Shown piece after piece: positions 42,335-46,284 of a DNA stretch of 58,954 nt (the first letter of the stretch is position 1; every line of letters begins with the position of its first letter). The DNA lies in the IMG/VR virus record IMGVR_UViG_3300022413_000001, positions 1-58,954 of that record; one strand, given 5' to 3'. The translations under genes were made by a program, and so were the position numbers. Source of the stretch: a virus. Taxonomy: Duplodnaviria > Caudoviricetes. The notes below the pieces were generated by a model. It was not told the DNA's origin and ran no database searches. It was given only the letters and a program-made list of their open reading frames with translations.

Positions 42335-42547
42335 ATGAAACTCATTTCGAAAGAACGGCAGATGCTATTGTTGGATGAATATAATCGACTCGTTTCGGAA
42401 GAACGGCAGATGCTATTGTTGGATGAATACAATCGACTCGTTTCGGAAGAACGGCAGATGCTATTGTTGGATGAATACAATCGACTGGTGAGGTTGATCC
42501 CACAGCCCTGTAGGTGCTGTGGGTATAGAGTTTGTGTTGCGAAGTAG
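42335..42547 (+). CDS. Small protein built from three 16 aa repeats plus a Cys cluster
   Basis: 48 bp tandem repeat (units start at 42353, 42401, 42449) encoding ERQMLLLDEYNRLVSE. Confidence 0.5.
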   Translation: MKLISKERQMLLLDEYNRLVSEERQMLLLDEYNRLVSEERQMLLLDEYNRLVRLIPQPCRCCGYRVCVAK

Positions 42548-42988: not shown

Positions 42989-44614
42989 GTGAAAACCATC
43001 ATTTTTGCTATAATCGTGCTACTCGGTGCGCTTGGCAGCCAATCACTCCCGGTGATGGCTTCCGTTCTGCATGTCTCGCTAACGGGCACTGGCGTGGCAT
43101 GTACATCCGAAGAGCCTTGCACGGTCTCCGCTGCCGTGCGCCAGGCGCGCCGGGGCGACGTAATCCTGTTCCCTCCTGGTGATTTCAAAACCCCATTCGA
43201 CACCCAACATCCAGGCGTGACCTTTGCGGGTGCGCCAAACTTCGGTACTCGCCTGCTCTGGTCAAGTGGCTCGACAGGCAAGCATATTATTGGCATCAAA
43301 CACGACGATACGGTCATCATGGGTCTTGTGGTGGACGGCGAAGGCCGAAGCAACTCGGGTCATGGACTTGTTCGGATTGGTAGTTCCGAAGGCGTACATA
43401 TCCTCGCGAATAAGGTCCTTAACAGTGGTGCTTCACTGATTAACGCAGGGGGTTCATGGAAGGATTCCACCATCCGAAACTTGAAGATTGAGGGAAATTA
43501 TCTCTGCCATTCTGGGCTCGATCGGGATTATGAATATGGTGAAGCGATTTACATCAGCGATTTCGAAAACACTGGCAAAACGAAAGGGGTGGAGATTTTC
43601 TTCAACGAGATTTGTCAATTTGCCGACAATGGTATTGATTTGAAGCCACCCTCTCAAGACGTTAATATTCACGACAACTATTTCCATGACCAGGTCAGGC
43701 GGCCTGGTAAAGAGGGTAATCAGGGGACTCTTGTCTTGCAGGGAAAGGGGCACCGTGTTGAGCGGAACTTGTTTTCGAACGTGGAGGGTGGATCGAGTAT
43801 TCTCAATGTGGCGACAAAAGCAAATATCCGCATCGAAAATAATGTGATCTCGAATGCCAGAGTGGATCTGAAGTTAGAGAAGCCAGCTATCATTCGGGAA
43901 CGGACGGTTGGGAGCGGAACAGATACGATTATAGAAAATAATATTTTCTGCGGCCTGAACTCGAAAAAGGTGGAGCAAAAGCCTGGCCTTGTGGTCCGAG
44001 ACAATCTGGGACTCGGTACGGAAGTGCCAAACTGTACAGCCCGCGCTGAACTGATCAGAGAGACAGTCAAACGCGGCATGGCAGAGGCCCGTGCCCGGGC
44101 GGTTGTACTACCCCAACCCCTGCCTGCTCTCAAAGCCCCTTGGGCGACGTGGGCAGAGCTCGGGGAGAACGTGGTTCGTGTATATATCCAGGCTGAGGGC
44201 GGTGAAAATCCCGAAATGCAACGGCGAACGTATAGAGAAGGATCAGTGAGGTTTGAGCTTGTTGACGGCTCGCCTGTGCCACTCGACCGGGAGAAGCGGG
44301 CGAAGGATGATCATTTGCCGGGTTGGGTCTTCTACCTCAGCCCGCCGTTTCCCAGGCAGCCCATCAAACTGATTGCAGAGGAAGGCTGGATTACAGGACT
44401 CCCCAAGATGGAGCTGATGCTGCCGTTTGCGGGTAAATTGCCTGAACCCGAACCTGTGCCAGAACCTGACCCGGAGCCTGAACCTCGTCCAGAGCCTGTC
44501 CCTGTGCCAGTTCCAGTGGAATTAGAGGGCGGGCAAACGGCCACGTGTACGGGGCGTGTGGACGTGGTCACGATGGAGAATGGGACTACCTTTGTGATGT
44601 GTTTGCCAAACTGA
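42989..44614 (+). CDS. Secreted right-handed beta-helix protein with a PE-rich linker
   Basis: Signal peptide; G.G..C....PC.V..A; Asn-ladder repeats; PEPEP linker. Confidence 0.75.
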   Translation: MKTIIFAIIVLLGALGSQSLPVMASVLHVSLTGTGVACTSEEPCTVSAAVRQARRGDVILFPPGDFKTPFDTQHPGVTFAGAPNFGTRLLWSSGSTGKHIIGIKHDDTVIMGLVVDGEGRSNSGHGLVRIGSSEGVHILANKVLNSGASLINAGGSWKDSTIRNLKIEGNYLCHSGLDRDYEYGEAIYISDFENTGKTKGVEIFFNEICQFADNGIDLKPPSQDVNIHDNYFHDQVRRPGKEGNQGTLVLQGKGHRVERNLFSNVEGGSSILNVATKANIRIENNVISNARVDLKLEKPAIIRERTVGSGTDTIIENNIFCGLNSKKVEQKPGLVVRDNLGLGTEVPNCTARAELIRETVKRGMAEARARAVVLPQPLPALKAPWATWAELGENVVRVYIQAEGGENPEMQRRTYREGSVRFELVDGSPVPLDREKRAKDDHLPGWVFYLSPPFPRQPIKLIAEEGWITGLPKMELMLPFAGKLPEPEPVPEPDPEPEPRPEPVPVPVPVELEGGQTATCTGRVDVVTMENGTTFVMCLPN

Positions 44615-44634
44615 CGAGAACAATCCACCCGATC

Positions 44635-44664
44635 TTGATTAATTTGCGGTTCCTGGCTTATACT
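44635..44664 (+). promoter_or_regulatory. Sigma70-like promoter upstream of the omega-RNA pair
   Basis: TTGATT-18-TATACT. Confidence 0.5.
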
Positions 44665-44704
44665 GACGGTAGGTTGTCCACCTTATCCACGTATCATGTC
44701 CCTT

Positions 44705-44806
44705 GCGGTGGCAACGCCGCCTACGGTCGGGCAGACCGAACGTCAAGCTTTCCCCAACCCACGCGGTTGGGTAAGAATCCCCTTCCTTCAGGGAGGGGAG
44801 TGTCAA
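44705..44806 (+). mobile_element. Orphan IS200/IS605 right end / TnpB omega-RNA-like unit 1
   Basis: CGGTCGG..GACCG hairpin; terminal GAATCCCCTTCCTTCAGGGAGGGGAGTGTCAA hairpin ending in TCAA. Confidence 0.7.
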
Positions 44807-44965
44807 CGCCTGCGGGCATACCGATCACGCCGATGTGAACGCGGCCCGCGTCATTCTCGCGGTCGGACTGACCGAGAGTCTAGTCCCCGTGCGCCAGCAG
44901 GGACTCGCCTGCGGACCCGAACGGTCTTCAGGAATCCCCGTCCTAAAGGACGGGGAGGATGTCAA
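44807..44965 (+). mobile_element. tnpB: tnpB 3' remnant plus omega-RNA-like unit 2 / right end
   Basis: Encodes ACGHTDHADVNAARVIL...GIPVLKDGEDVK (TnpB ZnF/RuvC-III tail); ends GGAATCCCCGTCCTAAAGGACGGGGAGGATGTCAA. Confidence 0.8.
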
Positions 44966-44976
44966 GGGAGCAGTAT

Positions 44977-46284
44977 ATGCCGCGCCAACGAATGGCAGTT
45001 GCCATTTGCTCATTGACGATTTGGCTTTGCTCGATGGCCCTCCTCTCTGCACAGCCACCCCTGACGGATCAGGAGTGGCATCACAATGTTGCCCTCTCGT
45101 CTGATACCCTTACCATTGCTTGCGCGGCATTTACTCTGCCCGTCGATATCGGTCAAGTCGTCAGTGATGCAGACCCGTTTGTTACCAAGGGGACCGCATC
45201 GCTTACCCTCTCCTCTGCTCACTTTAACAAAATCACGCTACAACCCGAGGCTGGCACGTCCGACACACTCAGCACCATTAGCGGATGTGCGGTGGATGGC
45301 GCTCTCGTGATGCTGACGACAGAGGACTTGGGGGATACGATCACCATTACCGATTCTGGCAATATCAATACCCCTGGTGCGGACGTGGTCATTGATAACC
45401 CAGAGAAGGTTCGTATTCTGGTTTTGATTGACGGAGAGTGGCGCTTTGCGGCGGGAACGGGGTCAGGTGGAGGCGTCGAGGTGGACACTCTGGCCAGCGT
45501 GTTTCTGCGCGGCAATACGGCCTCCCCTGCTCCCTGTGCCACCTACCCTCTCACCATTGACAATGCAGGCGATGACAGCATTAATCTTTGCATTTCGGCT
45601 ACTGAGCAGCCCTCATTTTTGACGACATGCGACGGTGGGCCGTGCAGCTATTTTTTTGATATTCCCAGTGGTGAAATTATGCAATTTTTATACGCTGGTA
45701 CGGTGGGCCAGACGATCGATTCCAGCGGAAATATGACATTGGCTGGCAACATGAAGCGCAGACGGGCACCATGGATTGGGGCCGGTGCCTGGTCCTCGGA
45801 CGGTACGCAGTGTCTCGAATGGGCTGACACGAGCTTTAACGGCGCCCCTCTACGCCCTGCCATCACATGTGCAGACAACGATGCTTCGACGATAACCACC
45901 TCGGCTGTACTCGATAGTAGCTGGGATGCTGGGACATTTGAGGTGCGGGCGTGGATTATTGCCACGGCGGGAACGCCTGCTGGCATTTACCACTTTGATT
46001 GGGCGATCCAATGCCGGGGATCAGGTGAGGTCGCAGATAATACGTGGGGAACGGAACAGTCGACGGTGTGGAATTTGGACGCGGGGGGTGATTGCGGTGG
46101 ATCAGCTTGTCCGCAGTGGGCGGAGCTTCGACAGGTGTCCGCAGCCATTACCGCAGCAGGGGGATGTCAAAAAAATGACCGGATTTCGGTTCGTGGACAA
46201 ATTAACGCAGCAGCGACCACGGCGCCGAATGTCTCTTTTTTGGGTATTAATCTTGGGTTTCTTACTGATAACGTCAGCGATTAA
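44977..46284 (+). CDS. Signal-peptide-bearing, Cys-rich, fibre-like structural protein
   Basis: Signal peptide; D.L.TI.G motif, GSGGG linker, paired Cys. Confidence 0.6.
   Translation: MPRQRMAVAICSLTIWLCSMALLSAQPPLTDQEWHHNVALSSDTLTIACAAFTLPVDIGQVVSDADPFVTKGTASLTLSSAHFNKITLQPEAGTSDTLSTISGCAVDGALVMLTTEDLGDTITITDSGNINTPGADVVIDNPEKVRILVLIDGEWRFAAGTGSGGGVEVDTLASVFLRGNTASPAPCATYPLTIDNAGDDSINLCISATEQPSFLTTCDGGPCSYFFDIPSGEIMQFLYAGTVGQTIDSSGNMTLAGNMKRRRAPWIGAGAWSSDGTQCLEWADTSFNGAPLRPAITCADNDASTITTSAVLDSSWDAGTFEVRAWIIATAGTPAGIYHFDWAIQCRGSGEVADNTWGTEQSTVWNLDAGGDCGGSACPQWAELRQVSAAITAAGGCQKNDRISVRGQINAAATTAPNVSFLGINLGFLTDNVSD

What the first reader, a model, noticed from the sequence alone, without database searches (positions are those of the whole stretch)
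44635..44985. Promoter-driven tandem orphan TnpB omega-RNAs, with guide 1 being tnpB sequence
Seen: two different IS200/IS605 right ends (ending TCAA at 44806 and 44965) share a CGGTCGG..GACCG hairpin and lie behind a sigma70-like promoter. I found no tnpA, intact tnpB or left end in the genome. The bases after end 1 (CGCCTGCGGGCATACCG) encode the TnpB C-terminal Zn-finger region; those after end 2 (GGGAGCAGTATATGCC) are the RBS and start of the next phage gene. Established: TnpB guides are the ~16-20 nt just beyond the right end. Inference: a mini guide array that hijacks host TnpB in trans, either to cut or repress multicopy host tnpB/IS loci, or to attack related phages carrying the empty site. 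The phage's own copies would lack the TAM.
Basis: partly seen in the sequence, partly recalled or inferred. Interest (0 to 1): 0.85.

Follow-up and report, generated by a model that had tools for sequence, protein, structure and literature searches.

The report
Transposon guide-RNA remnants in a phage
Two cut-down tail ends of IS200/IS605 transposons, each about the size of the guide RNA used by the transposon nuclease TnpB, sit in tandem just upstream of a phage gene; they are most likely insertion debris, though the better-preserved one might still be able to use a host nuclease.

Summary
Window 44688-44965 (278 bp), in the only spacer between two phage genes, holds two different IS200/IS605 right-end pieces that end in TCAA at 44806 and 44965. 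Unit 2 (44807-44965) is the last ~46 codons of a tnpB gene plus its right end. It is 80% identical in protein to 391-aa TnpBs, about 90% identical in DNA to two metagenome copies, and scores 78 bits against a family covariance model. Unit 1 (44688-44806) is a more distant relative (42-48 bits) and lacks two segments that relatives keep. The complete 58,954-bp phage genome has no tnpA and no intact tnpB.

New here:
- A TTATC motif lies at the left junction. The same motif flanks the left end of three full-length relatives. The insert therefore sits like a canonical insertion between that target motif and the ribosome-binding site of the next gene.
- Both units start within about 20 nt of the start of their scaffold core.
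- The tnpB sequence matching 'guide 1' is not preceded by that motif in 3 of 3 relatives.

Best reading (0.55): rearranged insertion debris, transcribed passively in an operon leader. The rival reading, that unit 2 uses a host TnpB to cut insert-free phage alleles, is plausible but untested. I found no related phage DNA, no host and no RNA data.

The parts
44635..44664 (+). sigma-70-like promoter site (TTGATT, 18-nt spacer, TATACT); predicted start about 44671
   Evidence: 9 of 12 matches; not enriched over shuffles. Not repeated elsewhere in the window. One record of another sediment run fits only 44633-44666 at >=80% and is unlike the window on both sides. This is a weak hint that the site is conserved.
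44683..44687 (+). TTATC, a target-adjacent-motif-like pentamer at the left junction of the insert
   Evidence: The same pentamer directly precedes the left end of L041 and L042 and of the Pantoea plasmid element L044. Recognisable tnpB-derived sequence starts at 44688.
44688..44806 (+). Unit 1: degenerate tnpB 3' remnant plus right end (scaffold core 44707-44806); hairpins at 44724-44738, 44750-44774, 44778-44799; ends GGGGAGTGTCAA
   Evidence: Covariance model R1: 48.1 bits and 42 bits as a local match (both with filters off); not found with default filters. The Rfam sot0042 match is weak. The same GGGGAGTGTCAA end occurs on a Pantoea plasmid pseudo-tnpB. No protein-level TnpB match.
44807..44828 (+). 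22 nt between right end 1 and the core of scaffold 2 ('guide 1'); these are the codons of the second CxxC of the TnpB zinc finger
   Evidence: In L041/L042 the matching tnpB stretch differs at positions 1, 16 and 19 of 20 and is preceded by GTGTT.
44807..44965 (+). Unit 2: last ~46 codons of an IS605-type tnpB plus its right end (scaffold core 44829-44965); terminal hairpin 44935-44956; TCAA 44962-44965
   Evidence: 80% identity to 391-aa TnpBs. (123 of 137 aligned bases identical to L042). (R1, 78.2 bits, E 1e-19). (Rfam HgcC, 22.5 bits, below the gathering score).
44882..44902 (+). In-frame 21-nt insertion that forms its own hairpin, in a linker of scaffold 2 (placement +/-3 nt)
   Evidence: gap against L041, L042 and L002. 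(inverted repeat I7). More distant family members carry 40-50-nt insertions at the same place.
44966..44985 (+). 'Guide 2': ribosome-binding site GGGAG (44966-44970) and start codon (44977) of phage gene 44977-46284; this is the original insertion target
   Evidence: Unique in the window at up to 3 mismatches. No exact copy in IMG/VR.

Best explanation
Window 44688-44965 is what remains of IS200/IS605-family (IS605/IS608-like, TnpB-bearing) insertion at a TTAT(C) site 11 bp upstream of the start codon of phage gene 44977-46284. The site lies in the leader behind a promoter-like site.

Later rearrangement removed the left end(s), tnpA and almost all of tnpB. It left two unlike 3' pieces, each cut to about the size of the guide-RNA scaffold. 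The phage transcribes them passively as part of the operon leader.

The 'guides' are only flanks. Guide 2 is the original target site. Guide 1 is an accident of the junction between right end 1 and the tnpB fragment of unit 2. Unit 1 is probably dead. Unit 2 is young and structurally whole, so it could load a matching host TnpB if one is present, but nothing shows that the phage depends on this.

Shown: the anatomy, the homologies and the absence of the transposon genes. Inferred: the insertion site, the order of events, transcription and the lack of function.
For: Unit 2 is a bona fide tnpB 3' end:
- 22 proteins matched at E <= 0.01 among 110 candidates; 15 of the 22 are 390-395-aa proteins with all three TnpB Pfam domains.
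- 123 of 137 bases are identical to L042. All 7 differences in the first 36 nt are synonymous third-codon changes, so the sequence diverged as a working gene and was cut recently (translation by hand).

The junctions look like a transposition product:
- The right end stops exactly at TCAA, as in 8 of 8 copies of a relative.
- TTATC at the left junction equals the left flank of 3 of 3 full-length relatives.

Guide 1 has no motif-adjacent target: the motif precedes the match in 0 of 3 tnpB relatives.

Unit 1 looks degenerate:
- It lacks an 11-nt linker kept by 19 of 20 aligned relatives; the other, the RpY1 remnant, is gapped further on. It also lacks 18 nt that cover the catalytic-Asp codons and one strand of the closing helix.
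- The model finds it only with filters off.

Other points:
- The two units differ: 79 identical bases in 139 alignment columns. They are not array-like repeats.
- Another phage, Ralstonia RpY1, carries an independent tnpB-3'/right-end remnant (TnpB residues 321-391 only), so such debris recurs in phages.
- No promoter of its own is needed, and no terminator-like site lies in 44000-45600.
Against: - Both units begin only 19 and 22 nt upstream of the start of their scaffold core, at nearly the same homologous point of tnpB (the second CxxC; 12 nt apart). With deletion end points spread evenly over elements of about 1.5 kb, that is roughly a 2% coincidence for each. This is my estimate, made after the fact. 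It would be expected if whole scaffolds were retained by selection.
- Unit 2 shows no disabling change. 5 of 6 closing-helix pairs are kept, one terminal-hairpin change turns G.U into A-U, and the 21-nt insertion is in frame and in a linker of variable length.
- Unit 1 still keeps three of the model's helices with compensatory differences. It scores like some genuine full-length members, which score 32-69 bits.
- The junction between right end 1 and tnpB is exact to +/-1-2 nt but is not next to a TTAT motif in relatives. A simple nested insertion therefore does not explain it, and the history is unresolved.
Confidence: 0.55

Rival explanations
1. Protein-less homing or exclusion cassette. Scaffold 2, transcribed from the phage promoter, is bound and 5'-processed by a host-encoded TnpB of the same subfamily. 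With guide 2 it cuts phage genomes that have the uninterrupted TTATC-GGGAGCAG site. Repair from the insert-bearing genome copies the 278-bp insert (non-restorative homing), or the competitor is destroyed. Unit 1 rides along as a passenger.
For: - Scaffold 2 is whole and scores 78.2 bits.
- Its core (44829-44965) matches the conserved 115-nt core of the family. That core is the size of the 116-nt ISDra2 scaffold, whose pseudoknot pairs -5..-3 with -103..-105 (PMC10097598, passages).
- TnpB makes its guide RNA by 5' processing, does not process the 3' side, and tolerates 3' padding (PMC10278001, abstract and section 11).
- The left junction keeps the TTATC motif, so the empty allele would be a legitimate target.
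- The phage's own copy lacks the motif.
- Gene-less PATE elements that encode guide RNAs needing TnpB in trans are described (PMC10055086, passages).
- Non-restorative homing between phages or plasmids has been proposed (PMC13565253, passages).
- Both truncations lie just upstream of the scaffold cores.
Against: - There is no host, no cognate TnpB, no RNA data and no empty-site allele in hand.
- The one possible relative seen (a loose end) differs from guide 2 in the motif-proximal letters, by my reading. Positions 1-12 are needed for cutting in ISDra2.
- No related arrangement was found in IMG/VR.
- All the features follow automatically from any IS605 insertion and so do not show selection.
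Confidence: 0.25
2. This is a two-guide mini array in which both scaffolds are active. Guide 1 directs a host TnpB against host or phage tnpB/IS copies, and guide 2 against related phages.
For: - The geometry is tandem, with a 22-nt spacer between end 1 and the core of scaffold 2.
- 5' processing of scaffold 2 would create the 3' end of RNA 1.
- Guide 1 matches family tnpB genes at 17 of 20 positions (L041/L042).
Against: - 0 of 3 tnpB relatives have a TTAT-type motif before the match.
- There is a mismatch at position 1.
- Unit 1 lacks two segments that relatives keep and has a weak closing helix: 5 pairs, 3 of them G.U, with a bulge.
- The two scaffolds belong to different subfamilies and would need two different TnpBs.
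- IMG/VR has 0 hits for the guide-1 pattern and for the end/zinc-finger junction pattern.
Confidence: 0.05
3. Cis-acting leader. The two folded scaffolds in the 5' untranslated region modulate stability or translation of the downstream operon mRNA. Binding of a host TnpB to scaffold 2 could also hide the ribosome-binding site that forms its 'guide'.
For: - The insert lies between the promoter-like site and the ribosome-binding site, with no other promoter-like site before the gene.
- The RNA folds somewhat better than shuffles: z -1.9 and -2.4.
Against: - The z-scores are modest.
- The structures are inherited from the transposon.
- There are no comparative data.
- The 84% homologue's gene starts at the same Met, but its leader is unknown.
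Confidence: 0.07
4. Still-mobile composite miniature element (PATE-like). It would move as one 278-bp unit by a host TnpA that uses a cryptic left end at 44688 and right end 2.
For: - Its bounds are exact: TTATC on the left and TCAA on the right.
- A hairpin at 44705-44720 lies 17 nt from the left junction. This is close to the spacing I recall for IS608 left ends (recalled, not from a call).
Against: - That hairpin does not resemble either right-end hairpin. In L041 and L044 the left-end and right-end hairpins do resemble each other (by eye).
- 44688-44723 aligns to tnpB coding sequence, not to a left end.
- No second copy was found in the window or in the collections.
Confidence: 0.05

Closest known systems
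Right end / omega-RNA (reRNA) of IS200/IS605 elements with TnpB (ISDra2, IS608 type)
   Same: - The RNA scaffold overlaps the 3' end of tnpB.
- It has a terminal GAAT-hairpin followed by 10 nt that end in TCAA.
- A long-range helix joins about -115 to -3..-8, like the ISDra2 pseudoknot.
- The guide is the flank just after the end.
   Different: - There is no tnpB, tnpA or left end.
- Two unlike copies lie in tandem.
- It is located in a phage leader.
- Unit 1 has internal deletions.
PATEs: gene-less IS200/IS605 derivatives that often encode omega-RNAs used in trans (Meers et al. preprint, PMC10055086, passages seen)
   Same: It has no protein gene, and its guide-RNA scaffold could work only with a TnpB encoded elsewhere.
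   Different: - PATEs keep both a left and a right end and are multi-copy in bacterial genomes.
- Here no left end is recognisable and there is one copy, in a phage.
Phage-borne full-length TnpB elements and other remnants
   Same: - The same terminal hairpin lies directly after a 381-aa TnpB in Pseudomonas phage phita81A and after an annotated TnpB in Klebsiella phage FBKp34.
- Ralstonia phage RpY1 has a tnpB-3'/right-end remnant without the gene.
   Different: - Those phages carry one element each.
- RpY1's remnant is cut about 100 nt further upstream.
- None is a tandem of two subfamilies.
Prophage-encoded TldR-gRNA repressors (PMC10705468, passages seen)
   Same: A phage uses a TnpB-type guide RNA with a fixed guide and a GTTAT-type motif to act on another genome.
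   Different: - TldR phages encode the protein next to the guide RNA.
- Their guide matches a host promoter.
- Here there is no protein and no host target.
Virus-borne mini-CRISPR arrays that rely on host Cas proteins (recalled, not searched)
   Same: The idea is the same: a virus carries only the guide part and borrows the host effector to hit competitors.
   Different: - Repeats in arrays are identical and spacers are acquired.
- Here the 'repeats' are two diverged transposon ends and the 'spacers' are flanks.

Membership tests
IS200/IS605 right end with TnpB omega-RNA scaffold (unit 2) | Overlaps the 3' end of a tnpB reading frame | tested here: met
   80% identity over 46 aa to the C-termini of 391-aa TnpBs (residues 353-391).
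IS200/IS605 right end with TnpB omega-RNA scaffold (unit 2) | Matches the family's sequence-and-structure profile over the whole scaffold core | tested here: met
   R1, 78.2 bits, E 1e-19. 9 of 9 non-training full or remnant members scored 32-69 bits. Training members score 150-155 bits by construction. The Rfam HgcC match is only 22.5 bits against a gathering score of 50.
IS200/IS605 right end with TnpB omega-RNA scaffold (unit 1) | Matches the family's sequence-and-structure profile over the whole scaffold core | tested here: inconclusive
   48.1 bits over 44678-44806 and 42 bits as a local match to positions 59-142. It was missed with default filters. It lacks the 11-nt linker kept by 19 of 20 aligned relatives and 18 nt of the codons before it.
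IS200/IS605 right end (both units) | Hairpin followed by a fixed-distance cleavage motif, with similarity to relatives ending exactly there | tested here: met
   GAAT-hairpin-AGGATGTCAA in unit 2. In unit 1 the spacer is 2 nt shorter (AGTGTCAA), a variant also seen in Pantoea L044.
Working TnpB-omega-RNA system | A cognate TnpB in the same genome | tested here: not met
   on the complete phage genome. The host is unknown.
Working TnpB-omega-RNA system | The guide has a target preceded by the target-adjacent motif | tested here: inconclusive
   Guide 1: the motif precedes the match in 0 of 3 tnpB relatives. Guide 2: the motif is retained at the left junction (44683-44687), but no empty-site allele was obtained.
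Working TnpB-omega-RNA system | The RNA is expressed and bound by TnpB | not testable with these tools
   The only RNA run found held a 122-nt contig about 90% alike, from a different element that runs on unlike the window.
PATE / miniature IS200/IS605 | A left end with a hairpin like that of the right end | tested here: not met
   44688-44723 aligns to tnpB coding sequence. The hairpin at 44705-44720 is unlike the right-end hairpins (by eye).
CRISPR-like array | Near-identical direct repeats separated by spacers | tested here: not met
   The two cores share 79 identical bases in 139 alignment columns. Tandem Repeats Finder reports no array in 44600-45000.

The most novel reading that the evidence does not exclude
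A phage carries a promoter-driven, protein-less tandem of two TnpB guide-RNA scaffolds. A host TnpB processes them like a primitive two-unit array: 5' processing of scaffold 2 releases RNA 1 with a 22-nt guide. The cassette drives its own homing into insert-free phage genomes, or excludes them. This would be a natural intermediate between a single transposon guide RNA and a guide array.
Probability: 0.1. Interest if true: 0.8.

Novelty: new member of a known kind. Interest (0 to 1): 0.38.

Why it matters
If it is only debris, it is a well-resolved example of how IS200/IS605 insertions decay in a phage leader, and a caution. Right-end remnants keep a complete-looking guide RNA and a 'guide' by construction, so their presence alone says nothing about function.

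If scaffold 2 is used, it would show that a virus can keep only the RNA half of a transposon's RNA-guided nuclease and rely on the host for the protein. That would give a gene-drive-like advantage over insert-free relatives. This idea is in print for PATEs and for 'non-restorative homing', but I did not find it described for a phage in the papers I searched.

Both pieces are cut within about 20 nt of the scaffold core. That is the one feature debris does not predict, and it would be worth testing on a larger set of remnants.

Tried and rejected
Related phages
- Protein-pattern scans of IMG/VR with the upstream protein, the downstream protein and its 84% homologue P0026 gave no relative.
- P0026 lies on an 18.8-kb contig that I could not reach.
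- No cultured relative exists for the downstream protein. The best portal matches are 35-40% identical, to Halorubrum and Brevundimonas phages, so the host stays unknown.
- There are no tRNA genes.

Parent of unit 1 (not found)
- IMG/VR pattern scan: 0 hits.
- First metagenome scan: 0 hits.
- Second metagenome scan: the pattern required GGGGAG-NN-TGTCAA. That fits unit 2 but not unit 1, which has GGGGAGTGTCAA. This was my slip. The scan found only two unit-2 relatives (L041, L042).
- A phmmer search of the 37-aa remnant against 1.84 billion representatives gave one repetitive 4135-aa protein, which is irrelevant.
- The 106-aa ORF 44696-45016 has no homologue.
- Five genomes searched by DNA gave only a 20-nt match.
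- Plasmids matched only at the terminal hairpin.

Reads
- Run X2 holds identical phage contigs for 43799-44042 and 44231-44655. It holds no contig over 44676-44927. At a depth of 2-3 this lack of cover proves nothing, and I do not use it.
- The small shares in X3, X4 and X5 are terminal-hairpin matches from other elements.

History models considered and dropped
- Simple nested insertion of IS-1 into tnpB-2: no TTAT motif lies before the junction in relatives.
- Recombination at the GTCAA repeats: it would put the junction at the DVNAA codons, which is not where it is.
- Tandem duplication: the units are too unlike.

Other
- Whole-window Rfam scan at gathering thresholds: 0 matches.
- Supplementary files of the papers were not seen. 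Lists of target-adjacent motifs and PATEs in them might bear on the TTATC motif and on orphan guide RNAs.
Full report
CONTEXT

The window is a complete virus record of 58,954 bp with direct terminal repeats. It encodes terminase, portal, head and tape-measure proteins, RecT, helicases and a Ros/MucR regulator. It was assembled from a sediment metagenome.

The finding lies in the only spacer (44615-44976) between ORF 42989-44614 and ORF 44977-46284, both on the + strand. Neither flanking protein has a Pfam or PHROG match. The next large protein downstream has a Chondroitinase-B-type beta-helix. The host is unknown.

THE OBSERVATION

- Two ends finish in TCAA at 44806 and 44965, each preceded by GAAT plus a 9-10-bp hairpin.
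- The CGGTCGG..GACCG hairpin occurs in both units (D3).
- TTGATT-18 nt-TATACT lies at 44635-44664. As a bare pattern it is not above chance: 2 sites found, 0.8 +/- 1.0 expected.
- The genome has no OrfB_IS605 domain, no Y1 transposase domain and no second TnpB-like stretch.
- A covariance-model scan of both strands with filters off finds only these two scaffolds.

UNIT 2 (44807-44965)

It translates to ACGHTDHADVNAARVILAVGLTES....
- A search among longer proteins found 22 proteins at E <= 0.01 among 110 candidates. The best is 80% identical over 46 residues. 15 of the 22 are 390-395-aa proteins with the three TnpB domains.
- tblastn places the match at TnpB residues 353-391.
- The closest DNA copies are two metagenome contigs, L041 and L042, which carry a divergent Y1 tnpA and a full tnpB.
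- Against L042, 123 of 137 aligned bases are identical. The 7 differences in the first 36 nt are all synonymous third-codon changes (translation by hand). The lineage therefore diverged as a working gene, and the truncation is recent relative to that divergence.
- An in-frame 21-nt insertion forms its own hairpin in a linker where distant relatives carry longer insertions.
- In 8 of 8 copies of a relative within one MAG, similarity ends exactly after TCAA. 44965 is therefore a true right-end boundary, and 44966 onwards (GGGAG and then the ATG at 44977) is flank.
- The 84%-identical homologue P0026 starts at the Met equivalent to 44977. The database's own gene call starts at the ATG at 44959, inside the right end.

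SCAFFOLD STRUCTURE

A consensus fold of 12 family members over the last 150 nt gives 41 pairs, 15 of them with compensatory changes. It has these parts:
- a terminal hairpin;
- two internal stems;
- a six-pair long-range helix between GAYGUC at about -115 (the D-V codons of the RuvC-III motif) and GAUGUC at -8..-3.

The long-range helix never varies, so it has no covariation support. It mirrors the ISDra2 pseudoknot, in which -5..-3 pair with -103..-105 in a 116-nt scaffold. Removing everything 5' of -116 did not affect cleavage there (PMC10097598, passages).

A model built from this alignment (R1) gave these scores:

| Sequence | Score |
|---|---|
| Unit 2 | 78.2 bits (E 1e-19) |
| Nine non-training loci (9 of 9 hit) | 32-69 bits |
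| Training copies (by construction) | 150-155 bits |

Unit 2 keeps 5 of the 6 long-range pairs. Its core starts at 44829, 22 nt after right end 1.

UNIT 1 (44688-44806)

- It ends GGGGAGTGTCAA. This natural variant is also found on a frameshifted tnpB on a Pantoea plasmid, whose last codons read the same way.
- The model finds unit 1 only with filters off: 48.1 bits and 42 bits as a local match.
- It keeps the inner hairpin, the third stem (with different but pairing letters) and the terminal hairpin.
- Compared with the relatives it lacks two segments. One is 18 nt that cover the HTDHAD codons (my codon-level comparison with L041 and L044). The other is an 11-nt linker with the outer half of stem 2, kept by 19 of 20 aligned relatives. 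The second deletion breaks the reading frame.
- Its version of the long-range helix would have 5 pairs, three of them G.U, and a bulge.
- There is no protein-level TnpB match, and no parent element was found.

I read unit 1 as a degenerate right end of a second subfamily.

THE LEFT JUNCTION

- L041 and L042 become identical to each other starting at TTATC followed by AAAGACGCC.
- The Pantoea element has TTTATC followed by a closely similar left end.
- The window has TTATC at 44683-44687, and recognisable tnpB-derived sequence begins at 44688.
- Weak independent hint: one contig of another sediment run fits only 44633-44666. Behind that stretch it continues with letters that resemble 44667-44687 up to a TTTATC. 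After the TTTATC it resembles the ribosome-binding-site region (6 of 8 with one gap) more than it resembles 44688-44695 (2 of 8). This is my reading of the 30 letters shown.

I therefore take 44688-44965 as one 278-bp insert, placed like a canonical IS200/IS605 insertion between a TTAT(C) target motif and the flank GGGAGCAG. A related motif, GTTAT, is reported for TldR relatives (PMC10705468, passage).

THE GUIDES

Guide 2 is the original target, as for any copy of such an element.

Guide 1 (44807-44828) is tnpB sequence.
- In L041 and L042 the matching stretch agrees at 17 of 20 positions, with mismatches at positions 1, 16 and 19. It is preceded by GTGTT there and by GTGTG in L002. So 0 of 3 relatives have the motif.
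- For the same reason the junction between end 1 and tnpB is not explained by a canonical nested insertion, although it is exact to within 1-2 nt.
- Neither guide has another match in the window at up to 3 mismatches beyond chance.
- Neither has an exact match in IMG/VR.

WHAT IT MOST LIKELY IS

It is most likely rearranged IS200/IS605 debris in an operon leader, transcribed passively (confidence 0.55). Supporting points:
- the anatomy described above;
- the decay of unit 1;
- the lack of a motif-adjacent target for guide 1;
- the unlikeness of the two units (79 identical bases in 139 columns);
- an independent tnpB-3'/right-end remnant in Ralstonia phage RpY1.

WHAT DEBRIS DOES NOT PREDICT

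Both pieces start 19 and 22 nt upstream of their scaffold cores, at almost the same homologous point of tnpB. Unit 2 also shows no disabling change.

This keeps the rival reading alive (0.25): scaffold 2, with a host TnpB, cuts insert-free TTATC-GGGAGCAG alleles and so drives homing or exclusion. Its individual steps are in print:
- TnpB 5'-processes its own guide RNA and tolerates 3' extensions (PMC10278001).
- Gene-less PATEs encode guide RNAs that need TnpB in trans (PMC10055086).
- Non-restorative homing between phages or plasmids has been proposed (PMC13565253).

WHAT IS MISSING

No related phage DNA, host, cognate TnpB or RNA evidence could be obtained. Three literature searches did not list a paper describing protein-less guide-RNA remnants in phages. 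That covers only the held library, and supplements were closed.

VERDICT

This is a new member of a known kind (an IS200/IS605 right-end remnant, PATE-like in carrying guide RNA only). Interest is 0.38.

Noticed in passing
L039:1301-1536 (Ralstonia phage RpY1, MN996301.1, near attL): An unannotated remnant of tnpB (residues ~321-391 only) plus a complete right-end scaffold (52.4 bits with model R1). No full tnpB lies upstream. This is a second phage with a protein-less TnpB guide-RNA scaffold.
   Followed up: partly
L044:430-1735 (Pantoea sp. At-9b plasmid pPAT9B02): An unannotated IS605-type element with a frameshifted tnpB carrying an in-frame stop. Its left end is flanked by TTTATC and its right end finishes GGGGAGTGTCAA, as in unit 1.
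   Followed up: partly
L038:350-1495 (Pseudomonas phage phita81A, gene phita81A_00060): The annotated 'hypothetical protein' is a full-length TnpB (34-36% identical to P0008/P0003 over ~380 aa). The 26-nt terminal hairpin right behind it is identical to that of unit 1.
   Followed up: partly
window 44959-44979: The database's gene call for the downstream protein (P0025, 441 aa) starts at an ATG inside right end 2. The 84% homologue P0026 supports the start at 44977, so six N-terminal residues of the call are probably transposon-derived artefact.
   Followed up: partly
window 42340-42486: A 48-nt unit repeated 3.1 times at 96% identity. It reads as a repeated 16-residue peptide in overlapping ORFs on both strands. 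It lies upstream of the beta-helix gene cluster and is unexplained.
   Followed up: no
window 44440-44485: A Pro/Glu-rich (PEPEP...) linker near the C-terminus of the upstream protein, seen as a 12/18-nt repeat. It attracts low-identity matches from unrelated metagenome contigs, which inflated the depth.
   Followed up: no
L004-L010:~1340-1500 (one Proteobacteria MAG): Six copies of a related tnpB element carry a small conserved ORF just upstream of tnpB. By eye it looks like a ribbon-helix-helix protein. Two other copies (L003, L007) lack it. Not tested.
   Followed up: no
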